This document shows, one piece after another, positions 14,470 through 54,650 of a stretch of DNA of 64,000 nucleotides. Where the stretch lies: assembly GCA_951406725.2 (NCBI GenBank), contig OX597815.1:176018001-176082000 (forward strand), written 5' to 3'. The stretch comes from Octopus vulgaris (taxonomy: Eukaryota). The translations under genes and the position numbers were made by a program. The notes under the pieces were generated by a model. It did no database searches and was not told the DNA's origin. It saw only the letters and a list, made by a program, of their open reading frames with translations. Position 1 is the first letter of the stretch. The number at the start of each line of letters is the position of its first letter.

Positions 14470-15212
14470 TGGCTCGAGAAACACGGGGCCGACCTGCCCG
14501 AGATGCGGTCAGAGCGACGAAACCGTTCTGCACGCACTCGTGTAGTGTCCAACTATTTCCGACCTGTGGGCTTATGTCGAACGACTGCCGTCACGTGTGG
14601 GACGAGTCGGTTTATCAGCCGAGTCTATCGTCAATGTCGTCACGCCTCCTTCCTTCAAACGGGAAGGAAGAGCTATTTTCATCATACTTGTGGCTATGGC
14701 GAAAGAATGTGTATGGTGGACACGTCTGAAAGGATTAGCGACAAACACTTTCCTCTCTGGTCAATCTCTCATCAATTTCTTCAAGTATCACTTGAAAAGG
14801 AAAGTGAGAGTAGAGAGGCAAGTTTTATCTAGCGAATGTTTCAAAAAAAGATGGGTGAATGTAGCAAGGATGGCACGTATGAATGACGAAGCCACCTTGA
14901 GTATATTCCTATGAACCCGGAAAAAATTAAAACAGAGTTACTTACTTGCAAATAAATGTGTTAGCATGTGACATTAATAACCGAGGTTACCGTGGTCTTT
15001 TCCGTAGGCTTTTCTTTCCACGGATAAACCTTATCTGTTTTACACTTTACATCATGACATTTCTGTGATACATGATCCGTATTGATCGTTTTTTTCCTTT
15101 TTATTATTCCTTTTTACGATCCCTTTTGATCGAAAACCTACCCCACTTTTTTTCTCCCCAAAAAGAAAAGCTCTACTTTGTAATTTCTCCCGTCTGTGTG
15201 GCTAATAAAGAA

Positions 15213-15214
<2 letters not shown>
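14470..15214 (+). mobile_element. Tx1/L1-clade LINE 3' fragment (zinc knuckle plus 3' UTR)
   Basis: Encodes CPRCGQSDETVLHALV*C (CCHC) and FFKYHLKRKVRVER..FKKRW, homologous to 29280-29640. Ends tgtgtggctaataaagaaa into (TG)n. Confidence 0.85.
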
Positions 15215-15262
<48 letters not shown>

Positions 15263-15968: not shown

Positions 15969-16529
15969 TATTAATAAATATTTAATATTGTATGAAGTGA
16001 TGTCTCGATGGAATATATTTACCCAACAGGTATTTGTTGAGTATTTCATTAGACTAGTTTATGGAAATTCCTTACTTCTGTTTGCTGATATATACGACAT
16101 TCTGTTATTTAAGACTAAGTTTATGTTAGTAAAAAGCAAAAAAAAAAAAAAAAAAAAATAAATGAGAGAATCTGATTCATGAGGCTGTCACTAAGTTTAA
16201 TGCAGTTCTTCATTTATTATTTGCTTTCAATTGATAATGTAGTTGTTAAATCTGATTTTTGGTCGGACAAATTCATAAATCGCCTTGCCGTCGTTCGTTA
16301 TGTACAGCACTTCATTTTGACATGATTATTGTACGTTTGATAATTTCTCGAACTTCATAGAATAAATTAAATTTCTCTAAGCCATCTGTGATGATTTATG
16401 GATCTGTGATGATTTATGCCTACATTCAAGATGCAAATATTAAAACATACTGCTTCCACGTGACTAAAGTATGAATGTTTGTCATTAAAATTAATAATTA
16501 GTTTTGAAATTAACATTCAGACGATGAAA

Positions 16530-17112
16530 AGGCGGCGAGCTGGCAGAAACCTTAGCACGCCGGGCGAAATGCGTAGCCGTATTTCGTCTGCCGTTACGTT
16601 TTGAGTTCAAATTCAGCTGAGGTCGACTTTGCCTTTCATCCTTTCGGGGTCAATAAATTAAGGACCAGTTACGCACTGAGGTCGATATAATCGACTTAAT
16701 CCGTTTGTCTGTCTTTGTTTGTCCCTTCTCTGCTTAGTCCCTTGTGGGTAGTAAAGAAATATGTATTTCATCTGCCGCTACGTTCTGAGTTCAAATTCCG
16801 CCGAGGTCGACTTTGCCTTTCATCCTTTCGGGGTCGATAAATTAAGTATCAGTTACGCACTGGGGTCGATGTAATCGACTTAATCCGTTTGTCAGTCTTT
16901 GTTTGTCCCCTCTGTGTTTAGCCCCTTGTGGGTAGTAAAGAAATAGGTATATCGTCTGTTTTTACGTTCTGAGTACAAATTCTGCCGAGGTCGACTTTGC
17001 CTTTCATCCTTTCGAGGTCGACAAATTAGGTATCAGTTGCGTACTGGGATCGATCTAATCGACTGGCCCCATTTCCCAAAATGTCGGGCACTGTGCCTAG
17101 AGTAGAAAGAAT
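16530..17112 (+). mobile_element. SINE family A triple nested array
   Basis: Units 16530-16760, 16761-16944 and 16945-17112. Junctions read taaagaaat-a(g/t)gtat. A diverged TSD-like pair acattcagacgatgaa / atattaagacaatgaa flanks the array. Confidence 0.9.
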
Positions 17113-17697
17113 ATTAAGACAATGAATAATAGTTGGAACTAGTGCTGGATATTCTAGAAACTACGTTAATTTAACACTAAATATTATACAATTAAAGAGT
17201 TTTTTTTCTGATAAGAATTGGTCCCCAACTTTAAACTTGTTTCTAAGGAACATATTTTACTGCACTTTGAATGTTAATACGTGTTTTACACGAAACAACT
17301 TATTCGCAATTATATACATCATCCAGAATGACGTAAATATTTAAATATATTTTCATACTTGCGACAATTGTGTTAAATTGTGCTGTAATCTCGGGCACGT
17401 ACACGCCATGGAAATCGAATAACTGGCCCTATGAGTCCTAAAACACAATAATATCCAGCGGCTGATGATGGTGATGATGACAATGATGATGATGATGTAT
17501 TTTCATATATTAAAATTGGAATCAAATTCTTCATACACAATATATGATGGGTTGTCATAAGCTAGACATACTAAGAAAATTATATCTTGTGACAGGTTAG
17601 GTAGTGTAAAACTGGAGAAGCACAGACATAAATACACATGTAAGTATATCAATAGATACATACATACGTACATACATACGTACGTACATACATAACC

Positions 17698-18340: not shown

Positions 18341-20333
18341 TTCTTGTAATTATGAAAAGCTGAAAGTCTTGTTTTTATATCATCAAAGAAAAGTAATTTT
18401 CAGTTTTTCTTATAAAAACGAGTCATTTTATTCATGACATCTACACACACACACACAATCCGATGAAATAGAAATGGAGAAATAACTTCATTTTAATCTC
18501 TGTTCTGTCTTTGAGACACAATACACATCTTTTTTTTTTGTTTTCTTTTAAAATCGCATTTTTGTTTACATTTCGTAATGAATTGCTTTCTGTACAATAT
18601 ATATATACATCGGTGCTTCTTTTTTTTCCATAGTTCTACAAAAGTACTTACCTTGTCAGCTTTCCAGCTAATAACTTGAAAATGGTTTTCTTTAGTCAAA
18701 ACTCAGTCATGCATTTTGCTGCAAAACAAGTGCAAGTATTACCATGGGGGTATATTTCGATGCTCATTTTGTCATCCACCCAATAACACAGAAGTTCGAT
18801 GATAGATCTCCTCGGAAAACCTTTGTTGGTAATGGCAATTTCTTGCATCAAACTCATTCAGTACACTTCTGCAGGTATCTATCTGTACGGCGTAAGCCAT
18901 TGCTTCTCCCGAGAACTTGCTGCTATTCAGCCGGCACCCTACTAGCCTCTATTTTACTTCTTTTTCAAAATTTTCATTAAAAAAAGTTATAGAAATCAGA
19001 AAATATAAAACTAAATAAATTTGAAATTAAAAGGATAGCTTATTATTATTATTATTACGCAGTTCAACCATATATATTGTATATTATTATTGTAAAAATT
19101 CCTTGCCTGCATTGTGAGAGCTGCAATGATATTGTGTTATTGCATTTGACAGTAGGTTTTCAAGCGAGAGTAATATATCTATAAAAGCAAAACGTGTATG
19201 GTTGTTACAAATAATATGAGTAATTTCGGAATGATAAATTTATGCAGGTATGTGCTTGTGTTTGCTTACACCTGCCTGTGTGCGTATGTGTGTGTGCATG
19301 AGTGTGTGTATGTGTGTGTGTGTACGCATCAGTAACGTTCAAACGTTGTCTTCAATGTTATTGCACACTTTTTATCACGGTGCAATTTTTCAGCTACTTC
19401 TGAGACATTTTCTACGCATGTTATACTGAATATCTGTGTTTCTGCTGTTTTCTTAAGCAGCGTTTATTTATCAGACATAGACCTGTTGATACCTTATGTT
19501 CCCCTCAAATTTCTGGAGTCTTGACTGTTATGTAATAAACTTTGATGTTTTTAGATCACATTCCTTACAATTTTTATATTTGATCTTTCAATTAATATCG
19601 CTATCCAATGGTATTTAATTAGGACACTGAATATACTTGAAATACATAAAAACTAAACCATTTCTACAACTTTGTCTTAGAACATTTATTCTAATTTCTA
19701 GCCTTACAAAACTGTCTCGGTTACACAGCACTGGGAAAAATAAGAATAACAGAAAATAACTATCTTTTGGACGCTTTCGTCACTCATGCATATAAGATTT
19801 TGTCTCATTTCACTAATTCTTATGGTATCAATTCACTTTTCTTCATTAATTTAAGCTGAATTGAGCATAGTAGTGCAAAGAGCAATGTTTAACCATCCGA
19901 TTTAATTAAAAGTAAATTTCCAATTCTAATTGGAGATAACTAACAAATTAAGTTAAATCGATTTTATTAAGATATATAATTAGAAAAGTTAATTCATTAC
20001 TGTTTTCCTGATGATTCAATTCTAAATTAGCACCAAAATGAATTAACCAATACTGCCAAATGATGCATGTGTGTATAAACCGAAATATGTCAGCGAGCAG
20101 GATTGTAAGCAGCTAGAAAGTACTACAGCAAACAATGTCAGCAGTGAATTCTAAATGATTTCGATCCCTACTTTCTCAATTTGCGTAAGAAAACGAAATT
20201 TCACAGGGTGTTGCGTGCACTTTTAATTTTTATACATTTCAGTGTCAGTTATCTGTGGCTTGGGACATTACATACAAGCGTTTACTTGGTTATTTCGTCT
20301 TCAATATTTGTTTCAATTTGGTATTTAGCTAAT

Positions 20334-20565
20334 AAGGCGGCGAGCTGGCAGAAACGTTAGCACGCCGAGCGAAATGCTTAGCGGTATTGCGTCTGCTGCT
20401 ACGTTCTGAGTTCAAATTCTGCCGAGGACGACTTTGCCTTTCATCCTTTCGGGGTCGATTAAATAAGTACCAGTTACGCACTGGGGTCGATATAATCGAC
20501 TTAATCGTGTGTCTGTCCTTGTTTGTCCTCTCTGTGTTTAGCACCTTGTGGGTAGTAAAGAAATA
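20334..20565 (+). mobile_element. Full-length SINE family A with Tx1-like tail and 14-bp TSD
   Basis: TSD GGTATTTAGCTAAT at 20320-20333 and 20566-20579. Confidence 0.93.
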
Positions 20566-20664
20566 GGTATTTAGCTAATCAAAAGCTGCTTGTCGAATCT
20601 CGGGGCATAAAGTTTCTTGACATACATAGATCGTTATATACATAAAGAAAACCATGGCACAGGT

Positions 20665-26662: not shown

Positions 26663-27996
26663 AAAAGTTTGAAAACACCACTATATTAGATAAATTTTTA
26701 TTTTCTTATGAATTTTACATGTTTCGGTTCTTGAAAAAACCAACCTTATCAAAAATATTATAAAAAGTAAAGTGTAATAGAAAAGTTCATAATTGTTTCT
26801 TACTGGTCTCAATAGAATCCATGTGGTGGTGTTTTGTTGGTAGAAGGTATAATAGCTATAAATTTCAAGTTGAGTGTAGTAAAGAAGTTCATTATTGTTT
26901 CTTGCTGGTATCAACAGGAACCACGTGCTTGTTTTTTAGCTTCCTTGTGTTCGAATGACCCGCGCCTGAAATGGTAGCAGCAGTAGTGATTGTTGGTCGT
27001 AGTTGTAGTAACCGTGGTGGTGGTTGGGGTTGCAGCAGTTAAGCTGTGGCCGTAGCAGCAGCAGCAGTAGTGGAGGACTGTTGATCGTAGCAGCAATAGT
27101 AGTGACCACGGTGGTTGTAGTAGCAGTGATAGCGGAAGCAGTCGTAGTGATCGTGGTGGTTGCGGTAGAATTTCATTTTTCTTTTCAGAAGACCAATATT
27201 TTGTTTTAATATTCCTGGCCCAGGGTGTTCAAACTTGGTCTAAATTTTTTAATGAAATAAAGTTCTTTATTTTGGCGTTGAGTGAAGGTTACGCTGTCAC
27301 TGAATTTGTAAAGTGGGCAAGTTGTAAATTTCGGATTTTTATTTGAAGCACATCTATCTATGTGTCCGCTGACTGGTATTTTCCGGTATTCAGGGTTTCT
27401 AATTTGGGATTTATGCACCGCCATCCTTTTACGTAAGCTGTTTTTTGTATGGCCTATATACTGCCTATTGCAACCTGCGCATGTTAAGACGTAAATTAAG
27501 TTTTCTGATGCACAGGTGAAGTTTGTTCTGATGGTAAACTGATGGCCTTGTTCTAATGTGAATTCTGAACCTTCTACCAAGATGACACAGATTCCGCAGT
27601 TGGGCTTTCCACATTTTCTAACTGCTGGTTTTGTGGTTGATGTTGAGTGCAGTTTAGCTTGGGTTAAAATCTTTTTCAAGGATTTTGGTTGCCGTTTACT
27701 TTTAATGATGGTGTGTGTTTCGAGGATCCGGTTCATCTTTGGGTCTCCCTTTAGTAGGGCTGTGCTTTGTAGTATGGTGCTGAAGGCCTCATTGTTAAGT
27801 GGGTTGTGTGTAGAGATGTAGGAAAGGATTTTTAATTTTTCTTTCTTTTTTGGTTTTGTTTGTCTCAGGTCTTCTATACTTAATTTAAGTGCTCGTTGGA
27901 TTGCACTGTCTATTAGGGGCTGTAGATAATTTCTATTTATGAGTGTAGTTCTAAGTTCCTGGAGACGTGTGTGTCGGGTGTTTGTGTCTGATATTA
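26658..27996 (-). mobile_element. 5'-truncated Penelope-like element (Cys-rich linker, GIY-YIG) with 3' UTR ending at (TA)n
   Basis: Open frame to the stop at 27206 contains CGKPNCGIC and LIYVLTCAGCNRQYIGHT..LRKRMAVH..PSLN. A degenerate hammerhead lies in the 3' end. Confidence 0.9.
26712..26756 (-). ncRNA. Degenerate hammerhead in the PLE 3' terminal repeat
   Basis: ATTT TTGATAA GGTT..AACC GAAA CATG TA AAAT. Two core substitutions; palindromic stem III ACATGT. Confidence 0.55.
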
Positions 27997-28096
27997 TGGA
28001 CAGGGCACGACGGTCAGGCGGTAGGTAATGACCGATGCAATAAACACATTGGCCACCTCTGCCCTCCCTTTCAGGGATAGCCACCGCCAAGACCAA
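27206..28096 (-). CDS. C-terminal part of a PLE ORF (RT thumb/linker plus GIY-YIG endonuclease); the first ~33 codons are out-of-frame Tx1 sequence
   Basis: GIY-YIG motif LIY..YIG, with R, H, E and N residues in the expected order. The frame is uninterrupted from 27996 to 27206. Confidence 0.7.
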   Translation of the reverse strand: MVLAVAIPEREGRGGQCVYCIGHYLPPDRRALSIISDTNTRHTRLQELRTTLINRNYLQPLIDSAIQRALKLSIEDLRQTKPKKKEKLKILSYISTHNPLNNEAFSTILQSTALLKGDPKMNRILETHTIIKSKRQPKSLKKILTQAKLHSTSTTKPAVRKCGKPNCGICVILVEGSEFTLEQGHQFTIRTNFTCASENLIYVLTCAGCNRQYIGHTKNSLRKRMAVHKSQIRNPEYRKIPVSGHIDRCASNKNPKFTTCPLYKFSDSVTFTQRQNKELYFIKKFRPSLNTLGQEY

Positions 28097-28170
28097 GTCT
28101 TGACTATTGCAGCCACACTGCTCGAAACCTCCGTCCAGTTCTTCTCTATCTGGAGGCCTGGTCCAAACAA
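27997..28170 (-). repeat. 174-bp inverted duplicate of Tx1 segment 28541-28714
   Basis: By eye, 4 mismatches in 174 bp. Confidence 0.92.
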
Positions 28171-28315
28171 CTGGCCGCTCCCCACAAATTTCGGGCCTTC
28201 TGCATCAGACGCTGAGTTCGTCAAGGATGTCTGCTCTCATCACTTTTGTATGTGGTGGCTCTTGAGCACGTACTCCCGAAAGTTAAGTGACATCTCAAGA
28301 GAACCAGTTTTAGAG

Positions 28316-28951
28316 GAGTTTGTTTCGGCTTACGCGGACGATATCACTATCAGTGTTACCACAGTAGCACGCCTACGTGGAGTGGGTAAGTCTATTCAGG
28401 TTTACGAGACGGTGGCAGGAACAAAGATCAACCGGGAAAAGTCGGTCGGCTTGCACCTCAGCACCTGGGTTAGCAAGTCGATGCCTTCAGGCAGCGTTGT
28501 TGGGCGATGGACTGAGGGACCGGTTAAATTGATGGGAGTCTTGTTTGGACCAGGCCTCCAGATAGAGAAGAACTGGACGGAGGTTTCGAGCAGTGTGGCT
28601 GCAATAGTCAAGACCTGGTCTTGGCGGTGGCTATCCCTGAAAGGGAGGGCAGAGGTGGCCAATCTGTTTATTGCATCGGTCATTACTTACCGCCTGACCG
28701 TCGTGTCCTGTCCAGATTCGTGGGTGATCAGGTTGGAGAGGAAGCTCTTTCGCTTTTTGTGGAAGGGCAAGTCGCTACTTGTGAAACGTTCTATCTGTTG
28801 TCAGAAGCCGTTAAAAGGAGGTTTAGGGATGCCTTGGTTAATGATGCGCAGGCATGCTTTGAAGTTGAGGCATCTCTGGATTCTCCTGGATGGTGAACGG
28901 GTGTGGTCTCCGCTAGCCAGACAAATGTTCCCCAAGTTCAAAAGTTTTTGA
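28316..28951 (+). pseudogene. Tx1-clade reverse transcriptase fragment
   Basis: Open frame containing YADD and the thumb region, within ORF 28028-28951. Confidence 0.8.
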
Positions 28952-29826
28952 GAAAAGGAAGCCTAGTGTTTTCGTAGACCGAGGTCGAGTAAATGGCATA
29001 TGGAGTATCATAAGGTCCTCCTGCTATTCCGGCGCTTGGGCAACGCCAGCGGTGGGAGTTCTACACGCTTTTTATATAGTGGGTTGGTAGAGTCTGAATG
29101 TGACGATACCATGGGAGCGACTCTAGGTCTCGGGTATATTCAACTTGACAGCCTCTTCTACCGTACATACGGGTTGAGAACGTTGGACAATTTCCAAAAG
29201 TCCTTGACCTGACAATGTTATAGGGGCGCCTTGCCCGTTTGGGATAAACTCGCAAGACATGGAAAGTCTCACTCTCCGTCCTGTCCAAGATGCGGGTGGG
29301 TAGGGAAACCGTCCCTCACGCTATTGTTCAGTGCCCGGAGATATCTGAAATGTGGGTTGAACACCAGTTGCCCGGCGAAGGAAGAGTACAACTGTCGACT
29401 GGGTCAATTATAAAAATTGACCCAGAAGACATGTTAACAAATGACGGTAAGAATTGTTTTCTCACTGTTATTGCAATAGCAAGAGGCAGAATGGAAGACT
29501 AGGATAAAACGGATCAAGACGGGTAACTTTATCTCCGGCCACGAGTTAAGATCGTTTTCCACTTTTCACTTGAAAAGGAAAGTGTGGCTGGAGAAGAGAT
29601 GCCTGTCGGAGAGTGTGTTCAAAAAAAGATGGAAGCATGTTGCACGAGTGCTGTGTGTGCACGGAACCATGTGAATAGGCTATAGAAGAAAAACAAGAGA
29701 TGAAAGAAGTACCAGTGATAGATCGGGGCTTATGGGGTCGGAGCGTGGCCTCATCATCACTACATTTGTATCATATTTGTATTGTGTATATCATTCGATT
29801 CTTATATATTTTATATGATTTTTATT

Positions 29827-30180
29827 CTTTTACTTGTTTCAGTCATTTGACTGCGGCCATGCTGGAGCACCACCTTTAGACGAATCAAATCGACCCCAGG
29901 ACTTAATCTTTGTAAGCCTAGTACTTATTCTATCGGTCTCTTTTGCCGAACCGCTAAGTTTCGGGGACAAACACAGATACACAACATATATGTGTATATA
30001 TATATATATATATATACGCCGGGCTTCTTTCAGTTTGTGCTTACCAAATCCACTCACAAGGCTTTGGTCGGCCCGAGGCTATAGTAGAAGACACTTGCCC
30101 AAGGTGCCACGCAGTGGGACTGAACCCAGAACCATGTGGTTGGTAAGCAAATTACTTACCACACAGCCACTCCTGCGCCT
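29827..30180 (-). mobile_element. SINE family B inserted in the Tx1 3' UTR
   Basis: Near full-length; head aggcgcaggagtggctgtgtggtaag on the minus strand. Confidence 0.9.
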
Positions 30181-30290
30181 ATATTCATATTTATGTATAT
30201 TCAATTTATGTAATATCATAACGTGTTCCTGACCCCAATCAGCTGTTTTGTCCCATTCTGTGTGTAGCCTCTGTGGGTAATAAAGAAATT

Positions 30291-30457
30291 GGTATTTCGT
30301 CCGTCTTTACGTTCTGAGTTCAAATTCCGCTGAGGTTGACTTTGACTTTCATCCTTTCGGGGTCGATAAATTAAGTACCAGTTGCTAGGGTCGATCTAAT
30401 CGACTGGCATACTCTCCCAAAATTTCGGGCCTTGTGCCTAGAGTAGAAAAGATTATT
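30291..30457 (+). mobile_element. SINE family A, 3' portion starting exactly at GGTAT (apparent Tx1 target)
   Basis: ggtatttcgtccgtc...gagttcaaattcc...gccttgtgcctagagtagaaaagattatt. Confidence 0.88.
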
Positions 30458-30487
30458 TACAACTCTTAGAAAATAGGTATCTAATTG

Positions 30488-30522
<35 letters not shown>

Positions 30523-30644
30523 GGTGGAATATGTCAGCAGCAATTAATTTCACTGATGGGAATGCATTCCTCGGCACCGCAAATTGGATGGTCCAACTTT
30601 ATGCCATTTTTTCTGAGTTTCCTTCGTATAATAATATTGTTGTC

Positions 30645-30830
30645 AAATTTTGGCACAAGATCACCAATTTCGGGGAAGTGGGTAAGTCGATTACATCGAC
30701 CCCACTGCTCTACTAGTACTCATTTTATTGACTCCAAAATGATGAAAGTTAAAGTCGACCTCAGCAGAATTTGAACTCAGAAGCCTTTTGCCCAGTGTGT
30801 TGACGATTCTGCCAGCTCACCGCTTGCCTT
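30645..30830 (-). mobile_element. SINE family A (diverged)
   Basis: Plus strand shows aaagtcgacctcagcagaatttgaactcag ... gccagctcaccg. Confidence 0.75.
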
Positions 30831-34926: not shown

Positions 34927-35604
34927 GCACTTTATTTTTGGATTAATAAGACAACCTATAGTATCATGTCAAGAGATCTTCACAATTATTCAAGCGTGCC
35001 ACATGGAAATGTTGGTACTCACCTCCATTTTGGTCGAGAACACCCCCCCCACACACACACACGCACACACACACACACACACACAAACAAACACACAAAA
35101 TTCGTCCAAAAGTGAAGCAGTAAGTAAGTTTAATACGCTCCGGAATTTTCAATGACACTTCAATTTTCTTAAAAGCTGAATAGAATAAATAAATAAAATT
35201 ATGTATGTATGAAACGAAGGAAAATAGGAACTAACTAAATCCAGGCAAATACCTTAATATATTCTATATAAATAAAACCCCGACAAGAAAGAATTGTCCA
35301 GTGAAAATTAGAGAAATTCGTATAGGGTTATTAATTTTTTTTTTTGTGATAGGTGAAAATTGTAATCCTAAGTGAAATTCCTATTAGAAACCGGAAAGAA
35401 TATTAATAAAGACGTGAAGATAACTGAGCAAATTCCGTCCGTCTCTCATTGAGGTTTTTTGCATGCTTAATCAATTCATCAGCTGATCCATTATTCTACC
35501 AAATTGACAGAGCTATTGTCTACTAAACCATTCTTTTCAATCGTGTTTGTTAGATATTATGTATGCAAAGAAAGTATGTGGAGGAAAGTGGTATAAGCTA
35601 TGCA

Positions 35605-36021
35605 AAGGCGGCGAGCTGGCAGAAACGTTAGCACGCCAAGCGAAATGCTTAGCAGTATTTCGTCTGCCGTTGCGTTCTGAGTTCAAATTCCGCCGAGGTC
35701 GACTTTGCCTTTCATCCTTTCGGGGTCGATAAATTAAGGACCAGTTACGCATTGCGGTCGATGTAATCGACTTAATACCTATGTCTGTCCTTGTTTGTCT
35801 CTTCTCTATTTAGCCCCTTGTGAGTAGTAAAGAAATACGTATTTCGTCCGCCGCTACGTTCTGAGTTTAAATTCCGCCGAGGTCAGCTTTGCCTTTCATC
35901 CTTTCGGGGTCAATTAAATAAGTACCAGTTATGCACTGGGGTCGGTATAATCGACTTAATCCGTTTGTCTGTCCTTGTTTGTCCTCTCTGTGTTTAGCCC
36001 CTTGTGGGTAGTAAAGAAATA
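35605..36021 (+). mobile_element. SINE family A dimer with Tx1-like tails and 12-bp TSD
   Basis: TSD GGTATAAGCTAT at 35590-35601 and 36022-36033. Internal junction taaagaaat-acgtatttcgtc. Confidence 0.92.
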
Positions 36022-37129
36022 GGTATAAGCTATCAGACCCAACTCCTTAATTTATTACCCTGTCTCTCTTCTCGAGTCGCTACAGGTAGATTTTCTTTTT
36101 CTTTTCTATCCGATGCTTTTACTTTAATAATGTCTATTAGACTGCAACAGTTTTGTGCAAAAATAAAATTGTATCTTAATTTCAGAAGTTTTTAAGTGCA
36201 AAATAATTTATGATAGAAAATAGAGTGTACTGTCGAAAAGAATACACCATAAAACATTGTCTATGAAGACTAGTAAGTAATTGCTGGTTTTCAAATTCTA
36301 CAAATTCACATTAATAAATACAATATATCCACAAAGGAATTCAAGTTATGAAGCTTTAGAAGAATTCCACCCTGAAAAAATTTTGTCGCGAGAATAAAAG
36401 ACGTTAACTTACTGGTGAAAATTACTCATAAAGTTGCAGTGAACTTCATGATTTTTCGGAAAGGCAAGCCTCGTACGTAATTGTTGGGTTAAAAGAAAAA
36501 TGGGCAAAGAGAATCGTTACAATATGACCCTGCATCTAAACAATTAACCCTAATAATACAGGTTAATTTAAAGAGGGTTTAATGCACTGTTATGCTTTGG
36601 TCCATATGAGGAAATATTCTTAATGATAAGATTAATAAAGAAACTGAATTTATCTATTTTGTATCAGAGTATGTTAAGATTTTTGTTTCGAAAACTTAGG
36701 AAGGTTTTGGTTTATAAATGAGAGCAACACATCAATGGTTCTTTATGTTTATTTAAGTTAGACAGCGTATAGCGTCGCTTTGCGTTATAGATTGTTATTA
36801 GAATTCCTTCTAGTATATTGTAGAACGCTACCTATTACAAACCATTCTATAGAGCATTATATTATTCTCTTTGATGCTCTGAATAACAATATTTACAGAT
36901 ACTTTTTTTTTTCTCTTATATTTGAAGAAGTGTGATTGGGAATTCCTGATTTAATTTTTCTAAAACAAGTACCCATATAATAACACACATTACAGAACAT
37001 TTATTAACTATATGTAAGCAATTGTTCGCTGCGTAGCAATTTCCAAAGTTCCTGAAATTATATCATTCATTTAGTCTATTGATATATGATTTTCCCATTT
37101 GTTGTATTACCGTTCATATTATCACCCGT

Positions 37130-40390: not shown

Positions 40391-40894
40391 TTATCAGTTT
40401 CTATATTTCGCTCTGTTAGCTGTCGTATATGCACAACACATTAAGTGCGCATGAGTGTGTGCGCGTGTGAGAGACAGAGTTCACATACATACATACATAC
40501 ATACATACATACATACATACATACATACATACAAGCATGCATCCTAGTTACATAAGTATACTTATCAACATGTTTACTAAATGGTACGCATGCAGAACAC
40601 TTGCACTCAGACCTGTGATCAAAGTATCAGAGCTAACAAAAAACAAAAGAAAAAAGAAAACTGTCAACCTTTGAAAATTGCAAATAGTAAAGCGCACCTT
40701 TAAAGAGATATTAATATTGTTTGGTTTCCTTTCTCTGAAATATGTCCTTGCTCCAAATTATTGGCCGCAACAGGTTCTTTAGGTTTCCATTTGAGACTAG
40801 GAACAGCTCGTGCCAAACAAAACAACAAAGAAAACACATAAAAGTAACGATGACGATGATAACAATAGCAACATTAACAATAACAACTGTTAAT

Positions 40895-41280
40895 AAGCAG
40901 ATTCGTTAGCGAGATGGACAAAATGCTTAACGGCGGGCGAAATGCTTTGCGGTATTTCGTCTGCCGTTACGTTCTGAGTTCAAATTCCGCCGAGGTCGAC
41001 TTTGCCTTTCCTCCTTTCGGGGTCGATAAATTAAGTACCAGTTACGTACTGGGATCGATGTAATCGACTTAATACCTTTGTCTGTCCTTGTTTGTCCACT
41101 CTATGTTTAGCCCTTTGTAGGCAATAAAGAAATAGGTATTTAGTCTGACTTTCGATTTTGAATTCAAATTGCGACGGAATCGACTTTGCCTTTCATCCAT
41201 TCGTGGGTTGATAAAATAACTTCCAGTTGAGCACTGGTGTCGATGTAGTCAACTTTCGCACTTCTCCGAAAGTTGAAACC
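40895..41280 (+). mobile_element. SINE family A: younger Tx1-tailed copy nested in an older copy
   Basis: Inner copy ends aataaagaaat-aggtatttagtc, resuming the older SINE at GGTAT. Confidence 0.85.
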
Positions 41281-41574
41281 GATAAACTAATGCATTACGC
41301 CGTTAATGAGTCAGTGACAGTCTCTTCGGCCGCCACAAACAAATGAAGATATTATAAAAGGGGAATTACCAAAAGGAGACAATTTCTTTCTTTTGCTTTA
41401 TGGCTGTCGCTAAGGCATTGAATCATATTTCAAACCAAACCGGACCGGAATTACAAGGGTGCTAAGGGCAAACAATTAGCATTAACGATTAGTGATTGAG
41501 GTTACAGGGAATAACCCGATACCCTCATATATTCTACTAGGAATAAGAACAAACCTGAGTCAAAGCACCAATAA

Positions 41575-41792
41575 TAATCGTTTCTACTAAAAGCCCAATG
41601 CCTGAAATTTTGGGAGAGGGGGTCTAGTCGATTACGTTGGCTCCATTGTTTCACTGGTACTTAATTTATAGACCCCCAAAAGATGAAAGGTAAAGTCGAC
41701 CTTGGCGGAATTTGAACTCAGAACGTAACGGCAGACGAAATACGGCTGCGCATTTCGCCCGGCGTGCCAACGTTTCTGCCGGCTCACCGTCT
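41575..41792 (-). mobile_element. SINE family A
   Basis: Reverse-complement head and body, (ATT)n-type tail. Confidence 0.85.
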
Positions 41793-42084
41793 TAATAATA
41801 ATAACAACAACAACTCTTAGGAACGATTGAAATGTTGAACACAAAAAAAACTGCATCCACATAAGGCTTGGTGATTTGTGCTGATGATGTACAAGGAAAT
41901 AATGGTAACACCCATTCTAGGAATACCAGACTTACAAGTTATTCTTTCTATTATTGACTTGAAAGAAGGAAAAACTATACATCAATAGGTACATATGTGT
42001 GTGTGTGCTTGTGCGTATATGTGTGTACGCTTGCACACGTGTGTGTGTGTGCCTGTGTGTATATATGTGTGTGTATGCGTGCGC

Positions 42085-53120: not shown

Positions 53121-53674
53121 GCAACATCTTTTGTCTTCTGATATTTATTGTGTTTCTAACACAGCCCAGTTATTAAAAATGCTGTTTTTGCTAAAACACT
53201 GCAGAAAGTGACTTATCTACAATATGTATAAATTCAGTGTTATGTTACAAATTTGCCTATTTTAATTTAATACTGCCTCAATTGCGAAAAACCAGAATAA
53301 TATCTTTGAGAATTATCTCTGTATTTCACATTCATTTATTACAATTTAGAAGTTTTATGAGAACCCAATGACCGGGAAACTGATATTTAAGATATGTTAC
53401 GTAAGTATAAAAACAAAATTTAAGAGCAACGTCAGGAAGCAAATCGAATGTGTGTGTTTGTGTGTGTATCCGTCACAGAGAGAGAGAGGTGGTAGTAAGG
53501 TATAGAGTGAGCATTTTCTCGTGAACTTTTGACTTGTGATGCTTCTGGTTCTTTGCCCATATAATTTCCCTTTCTTTTCGTATTTCATGCCACTTGTAAC
53601 AGGCAAAAAGTCAAAAGAGAAAGCTTCATTAAAAAAGAAAAAAAACCCATACATACACAAATAGAAGCACATAA

Positions 53675-54650
53675 TAATGGCTTCAAATCTTGGCAAAAGG
53701 CCAGCACTTCTGGGGAAGTGGGGCAAGTCGATTACATCGACCCAAGCGCTCAACTGGTATTTATGTTATCGACCTTGGAAGGATGAAAAACAGTCGACCG
53801 CAGCGGGATTTGAACTCTGAACGTAATGACGGAAGAAATGCCGCTAATTATTTCGTCCTGCGTGCTAATGATTCTGTCAACTCAAACTCGTTTATAATAA
53901 TAGTAATAATAATCCTATCTACTATAGGCACAACAATTTGGATTTTGTGGGGAGGGGGACAATCATATCGTCCCCAGTACTCGACTGGTGCTTAATTTAT
54001 CGATCCCGAAAGGATGAGTGCCCAGTCGAACTGTAACAAAAGGTTTGCCTCCTTGGCACAGCCAGAATAATCAGGAAAGAATTAGATAGTTGAAAAGTAC
54101 CGATAGCATGGTACTGTAGACTGCAGGTAGCAAGTCCACTACGCATGCAAGCCTCCAGGAGTTCTAGCAAAACCTGTGATAAAAAGAAAATAATAATAAT
54201 AATAACAACAATAATCCTATTATAGTCACAAGGCTTAACATATTGGGGATGGGGACAAGTCGACTACATCGACTCCAATGTGTATCTGGTACTTAATTTA
54301 TCGACCCCGAAAGGATGAAAGTAAAGTCGGTAGAATTTGAACTAAGAATGTAAAGACAGACGAAATACCGCTAAGCATTTCGCCCAGCGTGCTAACGATT
54401 CTGCCAGCTCGCCGACTTTAATAATAATAATAATAATAATAATAATCCTTTCTACTATAGGCACAAGGCCTGAAATTTGGTGGGATGGGACTCTTCGATT
54501 AGATCGACTCCAGTACGTAATAATACTTAATTTATCCACCCCGAAAGGATGAAAGGAAAAGTCGACCTCGACGGAATTAGAACTCAAAACGTAGCAACGG
54601 GCGAAGCATTTTGCCCGGCGTGCTAACGATTCTGCCAGCTCACCGCCTTT
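53675..54650 (-). mobile_element. Head-to-tail cluster of about 4 SINE family A copies with (ATT)n tails
   Basis: Copies are separated mainly by (AAT)n runs. Minus-strand tail gccttgtgcctatagtagaaaggattattatt. Confidence 0.85.

What the first reader, a model, noticed from the sequence alone, without database searches (positions are those of the whole stretch)
20320..20579. SINE-A subfamily carries the Tx1 3' tail and inserts at GGTAT
Seen: the tail ttgtcc(c/t)ctctgtgtttagccccttgtgggtagtaaagaaat closely matches the Tx1 end at 30248-30290 and partly the second Tx1 end at about 15190-15214. Two independent insertions in unique DNA have TSDs starting GGTAT: GGTATTTAGCTAAT here and GGTATAAGCTAT at 35590/36022. 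Other SINE-A copies have a different tail ending in (ATT)n. Inference: a Tx1 insertion into the SINE produced a tail swap, giving a SINE that inherits its partner's target specificity.
Basis: partly seen in the sequence, partly recalled or inferred. Interest (0 to 1): 0.8.

Follow-up and report, generated by a model that had tools for sequence, protein, structure and literature searches.

The report
SINE that homes into its kin
A subfamily of a short jumping element in a probably octopus genome ends in the same ~45-base tail as a nearby long jumping element and sits in front of the motif GGTAT, which also lies inside its own relatives, so it likely borrows that element's site-seeking enzyme and piles up inside copies of its own family.

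Summary
Observation confirmed. Six SINE-A units in four loci share a tail 82% identical (41 of 50) to the end at 30247-30290, downstream of a decayed L1/Tx1-type ORF2. All seven ends are followed by nGTAT (five GGTAT). Both outer ends in unique DNA have exact 14- and 12-bp TSDs whose upstream copy starts with GGTAT (background 7.6e-4 per site). So the element likely self-targets. Contig depth in two other samples groups the sequence just upstream of the tail with the LINE. The tailed junction makes up 4% of SINE-A contig depth in one species and 0.07% in another. A small 3' hairpin (loop CYYGU, compensatory stems) is shared by this tail, the (ATT)n tail and distant LINE relatives. Not shown: Tx1 rather than L1 clade, the LINE's genome-wide target (n=1), nick specificity versus RNA read-through pairing, and how the tail was gained. 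Precedent: SINEU/Tx1-Mar. New variant of a known kind.

The parts
20320..20333 (+). Upstream TSD copy GGTATTTAGCTAAT in unique DNA
20334..20565 (+). Full-length SINE-A unit with the LINE-like tail (T-tail); A-box-like and B-box-like motifs in the head (motifs recalled)
20383..20387 (+). Internal GGTAT of SINE-A (position 49), the site at which 5 of 7 tailed ends resume SINE-A sequence
20522..20564 (+). Tail shared with the LINE end; predicted hairpin with loop at 20545-20549 (one mismatch in this copy)
20566..20579 (+). Downstream TSD copy
35590..36033 (+). Dimer: TSD, full T-tailed unit (35604-35837), second T-tailed unit starting at the internal site (35838-36021), TSD
16519..17126 (+). Trimer: full T unit, T unit from the internal site (16762), ATT-tailed unit from the internal site (16946); outer 10-bp TSD with one mismatch
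40889..41311 (+). Nested locus: old SINE-A head (about 40897-40933), 5'-truncated T unit (40934-41134), old SINE-A remainder from GGTAT at 41135
28199..29690 (+). Decayed, 5'-truncated L1/Tx1-type ORF2 (RT C-terminal part onward), with stops and frameshifts
29820..30185 (+). Unrelated SINE (SINE-B) lying between the ORF2 end and the tail
30190..30290 (+). Probable last part of the LINE 3' UTR with the shared tail
30291..30457 (+). ATT-tailed SINE-A remainder starting at the internal GGTAT, directly after the LINE end; its head is not found upstream
14470..15214 (+). Second L1/Tx1-type family (69% aa identity to P0001), same last 22 nt in 19 positions, followed by (TG)n

Best explanation
A SINE-A subfamily carries a ~45-60 nt 3' tail that likely came from an L1/Tx1-type LINE family, and it is probably mobilised by that LINE's protein, which would cut at GGTAT, a motif that lies 49 nt inside SINE-A itself. 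Shown: shared tail, nGTAT after every tailed end, GGTAT opening both TSDs in unique DNA, tailed units nested in SINE-A at that site. Inferred: ORF2 binds the 3' hairpin, nicks the bottom strand at the 5' edge of GGTAT and primes reverse transcription; most insertions land in SINE-A copies, some at unique GGTAT sites with 12-14 bp TSDs. The 20335 unit shows no run of four T, so Pol III transcripts should read through into the flanking GGUAU, which could pair with the nicked primer and reinforce the choice. Where a full-length copy enters another SINE-A, its head is homologous to the host head and probably anneals to or replaces it, which gives 'full unit + unit starting at GGTAT' trains.
For: Tail identity and shuffles. 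7 of 7 ends followed by nGTAT: 5 GGTAT, 1 CGTAT, 1 TGTAT. TSDs and background. Host head kept at 40897-40933 with an old remainder only 72-78% identical to the other bodies. The last unit at 16946 and the unit after the LINE have the ATT tail and the other body variant. Contig depth ratio X14/X1 is 7.7 at 30210-30244, against a median of 7.8 over 14 LINE bins (range 0.6-17.2) and 1.0-2.0 over 13 SINE bins, and other copies carry A at 30228, so this stretch is multi-copy and behaves like the LINE. The two LINE ends share 19 of 22 terminal nt; T tails are closer to the first (17-18) than to the second (15-16). The tail-to-SINE-A junction letter is 4.0% of SINE-A depth in X1 and 0.07% in X14, so the SINE expansion looks younger than the LINE tail. 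Hairpin: 89% of 84 cells paired, 0 of 500 shuffles, slid controls 31-52%. Precedent: SINEU with Tx1-Mar (PMC4494074); read-through annealing in R2Ol (PMC6530143); stem-loop recognition (PMC4176376).
Against: One window: 4 SINE loci and 1 LINE end. The joint that would link the UTR across SINE-B was not among the 15 joints shown (2414 hidden), and the two raw-read runs had no reads on the LINE. The host head is missing upstream of the LINE. UTR collinearity between the two LINE families is weak (53 and 30 of 1000 shuffles; 347 of 1000 without the terminal motif). This LINE copy's tail is only 82% like the SINE tail and pairs only 2 closing bases of the hairpin, so it may be a sister of the true partner. 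Three of 6 T tails have one mismatch in the 4-bp stem, and no tail folds better than shuffles (z -0.24 to +0.43). Summed contig depth is not a copy number. Two first units share diagnostic letters and a YGTAT junction, which hints at a ready-made dimer, so events may be fewer than units. Tx1-clade membership was not tested against named references.
Confidence: 0.62

Rival explanations
1. Specificity is carried by the RNA, not the endonuclease: transcripts read through into GGUAU and prime only where a loosely placed nick leaves a complementary end, so GGTAT is at once the RNA's functional end and the target.
For: The match between the unique sites and the SINE site lies wholly downstream of the junction (7 and 5 nt). 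No T4 terminator is seen in the 20335 unit. All 3 outer junctions into SINE-A read GGTAT although GGCAT heads outnumber GGTAT-type heads 3271 to 1536 among loose ends in X1. R2Ol read-through annealing raises insertion (PMC6530143).
Against: Two junctions read CGTAT or TGTAT and CCGTAT heads exist (16530, 41792), which suggests the letter follows the target. Kojima states that target choice is mainly set by the endonuclease. The GGTAT bias fits a selective nick just as well. Not exclusive of the best explanation.
Confidence: 0.2
2. The tandem trains are ready-made composite transcripts (a master dimer or trimer, some moved by the ATT-tail machinery) or local duplications, not repeated targeting of SINE-A; GGTAT preference is real but self-targeting happened only a few times.
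For: 16530a and 35606a share TAAGGACC, a tail variant and a YGTAT junction. The trimer has one T-type head and an outer TSD starting with ATT-like letters. The LINE plus SINE remainder lacks a host head.
Against: The 40934 unit sits between an old head and an old remainder. The three remainders after outer T or LINE ends differ (73-88% identity). Units within an array are only 87-91% identical, no closer than between loci. Other diagnostic letters are mosaic.
Confidence: 0.12
3. The stretch 30247-30290 is not the LINE's end but a truncated old T-tailed SINE that happens to lie after SINE-B; the tail's source is unknown.
For: 366 bp of SINE-B separate it from the ORF; no spanning joint was displayed; UTR collinearity with the second LINE is weak.
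Against: The second LINE, which has no interruption, ends in the same 22 nt at 19 positions, 299 nt after its stop. The stretch just upstream is unlike SINE-A, multi-copy, and tracks LINE depth in two samples.
Confidence: 0.06

Closest known systems
SINEU (especially SINEU-3) with Tx1-Mar in crocodilians (Kojima 2015, PMC4494074; passages and section 16 read)
   Same: A non-autonomous element shares target preference with Tx1 families; the target is another repeat; tandem insertions sandwich a TSD; different Tx1 families prefer different sites.
   Different: SINEU has U1/U2 heads and poly(A) tails, no LINE sharing the SINEU-1 3' end was found, and the target is a Mariner transposon. Here the head is tRNA-like, the tail is shared with the LINE, there is no poly(A), and the target is the SINE's own family.
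Tx1L of Xenopus in Tx1D; Keno, Kibi, Koshi (as described in PMC4494074; the Tx1L paper PMC85248 was not held)
   Same: Tx1-clade LINEs with family-specific targets, including repeats and microsatellites; the two LINE families in this window are followed by SINE-A and by (TG)n.
   Different: The passages read name no SINE as a Tx1 target; clade placement of the window's LINE among named Tx1 families was not tested.
Stringent SINE/LINE pairs with a shared 3' stem-loop (UnaL2, ZfL2; PMC4176376 passages) and tail exchange in MetaSINEs (PMC4824008 passages)
   Same: Shared 3' tail, short stem with a conserved loop, one head and body combined with different tails, template switch proposed as the route.
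   Different: Those partners are L2 or CR1 or unidentified, and no site-specific insertion is described for them in the passages read.
Octopus tRNA-derived SINEs OR1, OR2, OK and the tRNA-Core/tRNA-Deu classes (cited in PMC4824008, PMC4758252, PMC8967140)
   Same: Abundant tRNA-type SINEs of octopods; SINE-A may be one of them.
   Different: No sequence comparison was possible; the passages read give no partner LINE or target motif.

Membership tests
tRNA-derived SINE | Short interspersed repeat with TSDs | tested here: met
   232 nt unit, 14-bp TSD, many copies in the window
tRNA-derived SINE | [quoted passage not shown] | tested here: met
   The tail-to-SINE junction letter stands in 128 contigs (the counting cap) of X1; contigs, not a copy count
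tRNA-derived SINE | Head similar to a tRNA, with A and B boxes | tested here: inconclusive
   Box-like motifs seen by eye (recalled); Rfam gave no match at E up to 5
tRNA-derived SINE | Pol III transcription | not tested
   No RNA run was laid
Tx1 clade LINE | APE endonuclease plus RT ORF2 of the L1 group | tested here: met
   Relatives carry PF03372, PF00078, PF13966; relative P0006 matches human L1 ORF2 at E 2e-74, R2 at 9e-18. The window copy itself lacks the endonuclease part
Tx1 clade LINE | RT phylogeny groups with named Tx1 elements rather than L1 | not testable with these tools
   No named Tx1 protein among the hits listed
Tx1 clade LINE | Target preference (over 20% of flanks, Kojima's rule) | tested here: inconclusive
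   One end per family in the window; could not separate LINE ends from SINE ends
Stringent SINE/LINE pair | Shared 3' terminal sequence | tested here: met
   41 of 50 nt; 0 of 1000 shuffles for 6 of 6 units
Stringent SINE/LINE pair | Conserved 3' stem-loop | tested here: inconclusive
   Covariation across tail types, but rows were anchored on the loop by me, related rows are not independent, and the LINE copy pairs only 2 closing bases
Stringent SINE/LINE pair | ORF2 binds the tail and mobilises the SINE | not testable with these tools
   Needs an assay
SINEU | U1- or U2-derived head | tested here: not met
   No Rfam match over 20250-20650
SINEU | Poly(A) tail and Mariner-N4 target | tested here: not met
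   Ends in AAAGAAATA and is followed by GGTAT
MetaSINE or CORE-SINE superfamily | Central conserved domain | not testable with these tools
   Consensus sequences are in figures; a motif search of 2 supplement files found nothing and file 1 could not be searched

The most novel reading that the evidence does not exclude
The dominant SINE of this genome is a modular client of a clan of site-specific Tx1-type LINEs that read a conserved 3' hairpin: by swapping tails it swaps landing sites, (ATT)n for the old tail and its own head for the new one. A LINE evolved to target the SINE, the SINE captured that LINE's tail, and it now amplifies by inserting into itself. Support for the ATT tail being Tx1-type too: a profile of 8 ATT-type tails hits the 3' end of distant LINE relatives in 22 of 31 loci, once each and on the coding strand (best E 0.0023).
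Probability: 0.25. Interest if true: 0.72.

Novelty: new variant of a known kind. Interest (0 to 1): 0.5.

Why it matters
It would be a SINE with a sequence-identified Tx1-type partner tail and a defined target motif, a pairing that SINEU only implied, with the twist that the target lies in the SINE's own family. It would explain head-to-tail SINE trains in octopod genomes, where SINEs are about 12% of the DNA (PMC13282606), and two tails on one SINE body give a natural experiment on whether the endonuclease or RNA-target pairing sets the landing site. Each ingredient has precedent, so it is a neat variant and not a new class.

Tried and rejected
No whole genome is held, so no genome-wide TSD logo. 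Exact-pattern scans for the tail found 1 chance hit in viral contigs (L001, no SINE around it) and 0 in genome and metagenome contigs; the SINE body pattern found 0. Protein-based locus searches gave 0 confirmed in metagenome and viral contigs and 31 distant loci in one assembly; no tRNA in 9 and no Rfam match in 7 of those loci. The T-tail profile had 0 hits in them. Raw-read runs X21 and X22 gave 100 and 223 reads, none on the LINE. Folding energies of the tails were no better than shuffles. No convincing TSD for SINE-B (AT-rich candidates only) or for the LINE-plus-SINE block. No named Tx1 reference was retrieved. Look-ups of earlier findings by sequence, place and long word list returned nothing. 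Rejected: GGTAT as mere SINE terminus (it opens the upstream TSD copy in 2 of 2); the second LINE as the partner (weak match, other flank); membership in SINEU. Row A53961m (no stem) was left out of the pair count, and only 6 of 31 relative loci were used, chosen by motif.

Full report
Setting. No whole genome is held. The window is animal DNA rich in repeats; the closest named relative of its LINE protein is from Argonauta hians at 56% identity, so an octopod is likely (inference). I call the tail in question the T tail and the other one the ATT tail.

Observation. The unit at 20334-20565 is flanked by the exact 14-bp duplication GGTATTTAGCTAAT, and the element at 35604-36021 by the exact 12-bp GGTATAAGCTAT. 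Six units in four loci carry the T tail: 16530a, 16763b, 20335, 35606a, 35839b and 40930a. The tail matches 30247-30295 at 82% over 50 nt, and for 6 of 6 units none of 1000 shuffles scored as high. The match to the second LINE end is weak (1-66 of 1000). GGTAT occupies 91 of 120,362 positions outside SINE-A, so two upstream TSD copies starting with it has a chance of 7.6e-4 if the first defines the motif, or 5.7e-7 if the motif is taken from the SINE's internal site.

All 7 ends (6 SINE, 1 LINE) are followed by nGTAT: five GGTAT, one CGTAT, one TGTAT. In 5 of 7 what follows is SINE-A itself, resuming at an internal site 49 nt from its 5' end. At 40889-41311 the whole anatomy of a nested insertion is kept: an old head, a 5'-truncated T unit from 40934, then the old remainder from GGTAT, 72-78% identical to the other bodies. 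At 16530 a T-type head leads two T units and an ATT-tailed remainder, inside an outer 10-bp TSD with one mismatch. The LINE end at 30290 is followed by an ATT-tailed remainder from the same site, though no host head is found upstream, where a GIY-YIG element and an inverted duplication lie. So the preferred target is SINE-A, and the unique sites are secondary targets that share 7 and 5 nt with it.

Is 30190-30290 the LINE's end? ORF2 at 28199-29690 is decayed, has an RT match below the Pfam cut-off (E 3.5e-5) and is 62-64% identical to three proteins with RT and zf-RVT domains. A full-length relative matches human L1 ORF2 far better than R2. No named Tx1 protein was among the hits listed, so 'Tx1' is recalled from motifs and behaviour. 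A SINE-B lies between the ORF and the tail. A second family at 14470-15214 (69% to P0001) has no interruption and ends in the same 22 nt at 19 positions, then (TG)n; collinearity further upstream is weak (53 and 30 of 1000 shuffles, 347 without the terminal motif). I laid 4 of the 24 runs listed on 29300-30345. The two raw-read runs gave 100 and 223 reads, none on the LINE. In the two contig sets the bin 30210-30244 has depth 117 and 898, against 15-24 and 47-77 for the single pieces listed, and other copies read A at 30228. Its depth ratio between samples, 7.7, sits with the LINE bins (median 7.8, range 0.6-17.2, n=14) and not with the SINE bins (1.0-2.0, n=13). The joint across SINE-B was not among the 15 shown of 2429. 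I put the LINE-end reading at about 0.9.

Direction and age. T tails are closer to the first LINE end (17-18 of 22) than to the second (15-16), while the two LINE ends share 19: the motif is native to the LINE lineage. The letter that marks a T tail joined to SINE-A has 4.0% of SINE-A depth in X1 (organism A) and 0.07% in X14 (organism C), whereas the LINE is relatively deeper in X14. Summed contig depth is no copy number, but the contrast suggests a lineage-restricted burst of the tailed SINE after the LINE tail existed.

A shared hairpin. T tails read GCCC-CTTGT-GGGT, ATT tails AGGC-CTTGT-GCCT, and 29 of 31 distant LINE loci (42-43% aa identity, tandem arrays in one assembly) have GGC-CTYGT-GCC, 18-21 nt before AATAAA in the 7 loci measured. 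A 4-bp stem is perfect in 3 of 6 T tails (one mismatch in the other 3) and 6 of 9 ATT tails; the LINE ends close 2 and 3 pairs; background is 4.2% for 3 pairs. On 22 rows, 89% of cells pair, 14 cells change on both sides, 0 of 500 shuffles reach this and slid controls give 31-52%. Caveats: I anchored the rows on the loop, left out one ATT row without a stem, used 6 of 31 loci chosen by motif, and the covariation reflects one change between tail types; free-energy folding shows nothing beyond shuffles. A profile of 8 ATT tails hits 22 of the 31 loci once each, at the 3' end and on the coding strand, best E 0.0023; the T profile hits none. This is a lead that the ATT tail is also of Tx1 type; an (AAT)n-targeting Dong/R4 partner is an untested alternative (target recalled).

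Mechanism. Most likely ORF2 binds the tail hairpin, as shown for zebrafish L2 elements (PMC4176376, passages), nicks at the 5' edge of GGTAT and primes reverse transcription, leaving 12-14 bp TSDs. The 20335 unit shows no T4 run, so Pol III should read into the flanking GGUAU, which could pair with the primer as in R2Ol (PMC6530143, passages). Sequence cannot separate the two contributions. A full-length copy entering a SINE-A meets a homologous head upstream; annealing there would give the trains seen (inferred). A ready-made dimer may account for some: 16530a and 35606a share diagnostic letters, but array units are only 87-91% identical and other letters are mosaic.

Origin of the swap. The two tail types part at SINE position about 166, not at the GGTAT site. 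A near-match (GATAT or GATGT; GGTAT at 35944) lies 13-14 nt upstream of that point, the length of a TSD, so a severely truncated LINE insertion is possible; a template switch, as proposed for MetaSINE tails (PMC4824008, passages), fits equally.

Comparison and novelty. The closest case is SINEU with Tx1-Mar: shared target in another repeat and tandem insertions, but snRNA heads, poly(A) and no shared tail found for SINEU-1 (PMC4494074, passages and section 16). Nine searches of the held library listed no paper on an octopus SINE with a Tx1 tail, a GGTAT target or self-targeting. I read passages of PMC13282606 (and searched its supplement), PMC8967140, PMC4758252, PMC3747384, PMC3531059 and PMC7265360 without finding it. 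Subscription papers, Repbase and one MetaSINE supplement file were not visible, so absence is not established. Earlier AI notes report LINEs lodged in SINEs in other genomes; these are unchecked leads and suggest that the targeting half is not rare.

Verdict. Real feature, partly right interpretation, new variant of a known kind; interest 0.5, or about 0.7 if both tails prove to come from site-specific Tx1-type partners.

Noticed in passing
window 14470-41134: All six T-tailed units and both LINE pieces (6 separate loci) lie on the + strand, while ATT-only SINE-A copies lie on both; about 0.03 by chance. Unexplained; could reflect selection inside a transcription unit.
   Followed up: no
window 27206-28203: A GIY-YIG (Penelope-like) piece on the - strand abuts a 174-bp inverted duplication (97.7%) of the LINE's own 28541-28714; 28170-28203 resembles both the ATT tail (E 0.02) and inverted LINE sequence.
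   Followed up: partly
window 15214-15257: The second LINE family ends directly before (TG)n, suggesting a sister family with a microsatellite target.
   Followed up: partly
L002-L032: Head-to-tail arrays of L1/Tx1-type LINEs with a period of about 6.4-6.8 kb, several families, in contigs of a bacterial MAG; probably host eukaryote DNA binned into it. No tRNA or Rfam target between units in those scanned.
   Followed up: partly
window 30469-30480: A second GAAAATAGGTAT-like string 12 nt after the ATT tail of the unit that follows the LINE; possibly a minimal truncated insertion or chance.
   Followed up: partly
window 53670-54650 (-), 41570-41800 (-), 30630-30823 (-): ATT-tailed copies sit in or next to (ATT)n, three or four in a row at 53670-54650; 30823 has an exact 12-bp TSD starting ATTAT.
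   Followed up: partly
window 20372-20393: In most copies the internal GGTAT lies at the 3' side of a possible hairpin in the SINE head (GCGAAATGC ... GTATTTCGT), read by eye; the minimum-energy fold of the 20335 copy did not show it.
   Followed up: partly
window 20320-20333 and 35590-35601: Both unique targets have AGCTA one or two bases after GGTAT; n=2.
   Followed up: no
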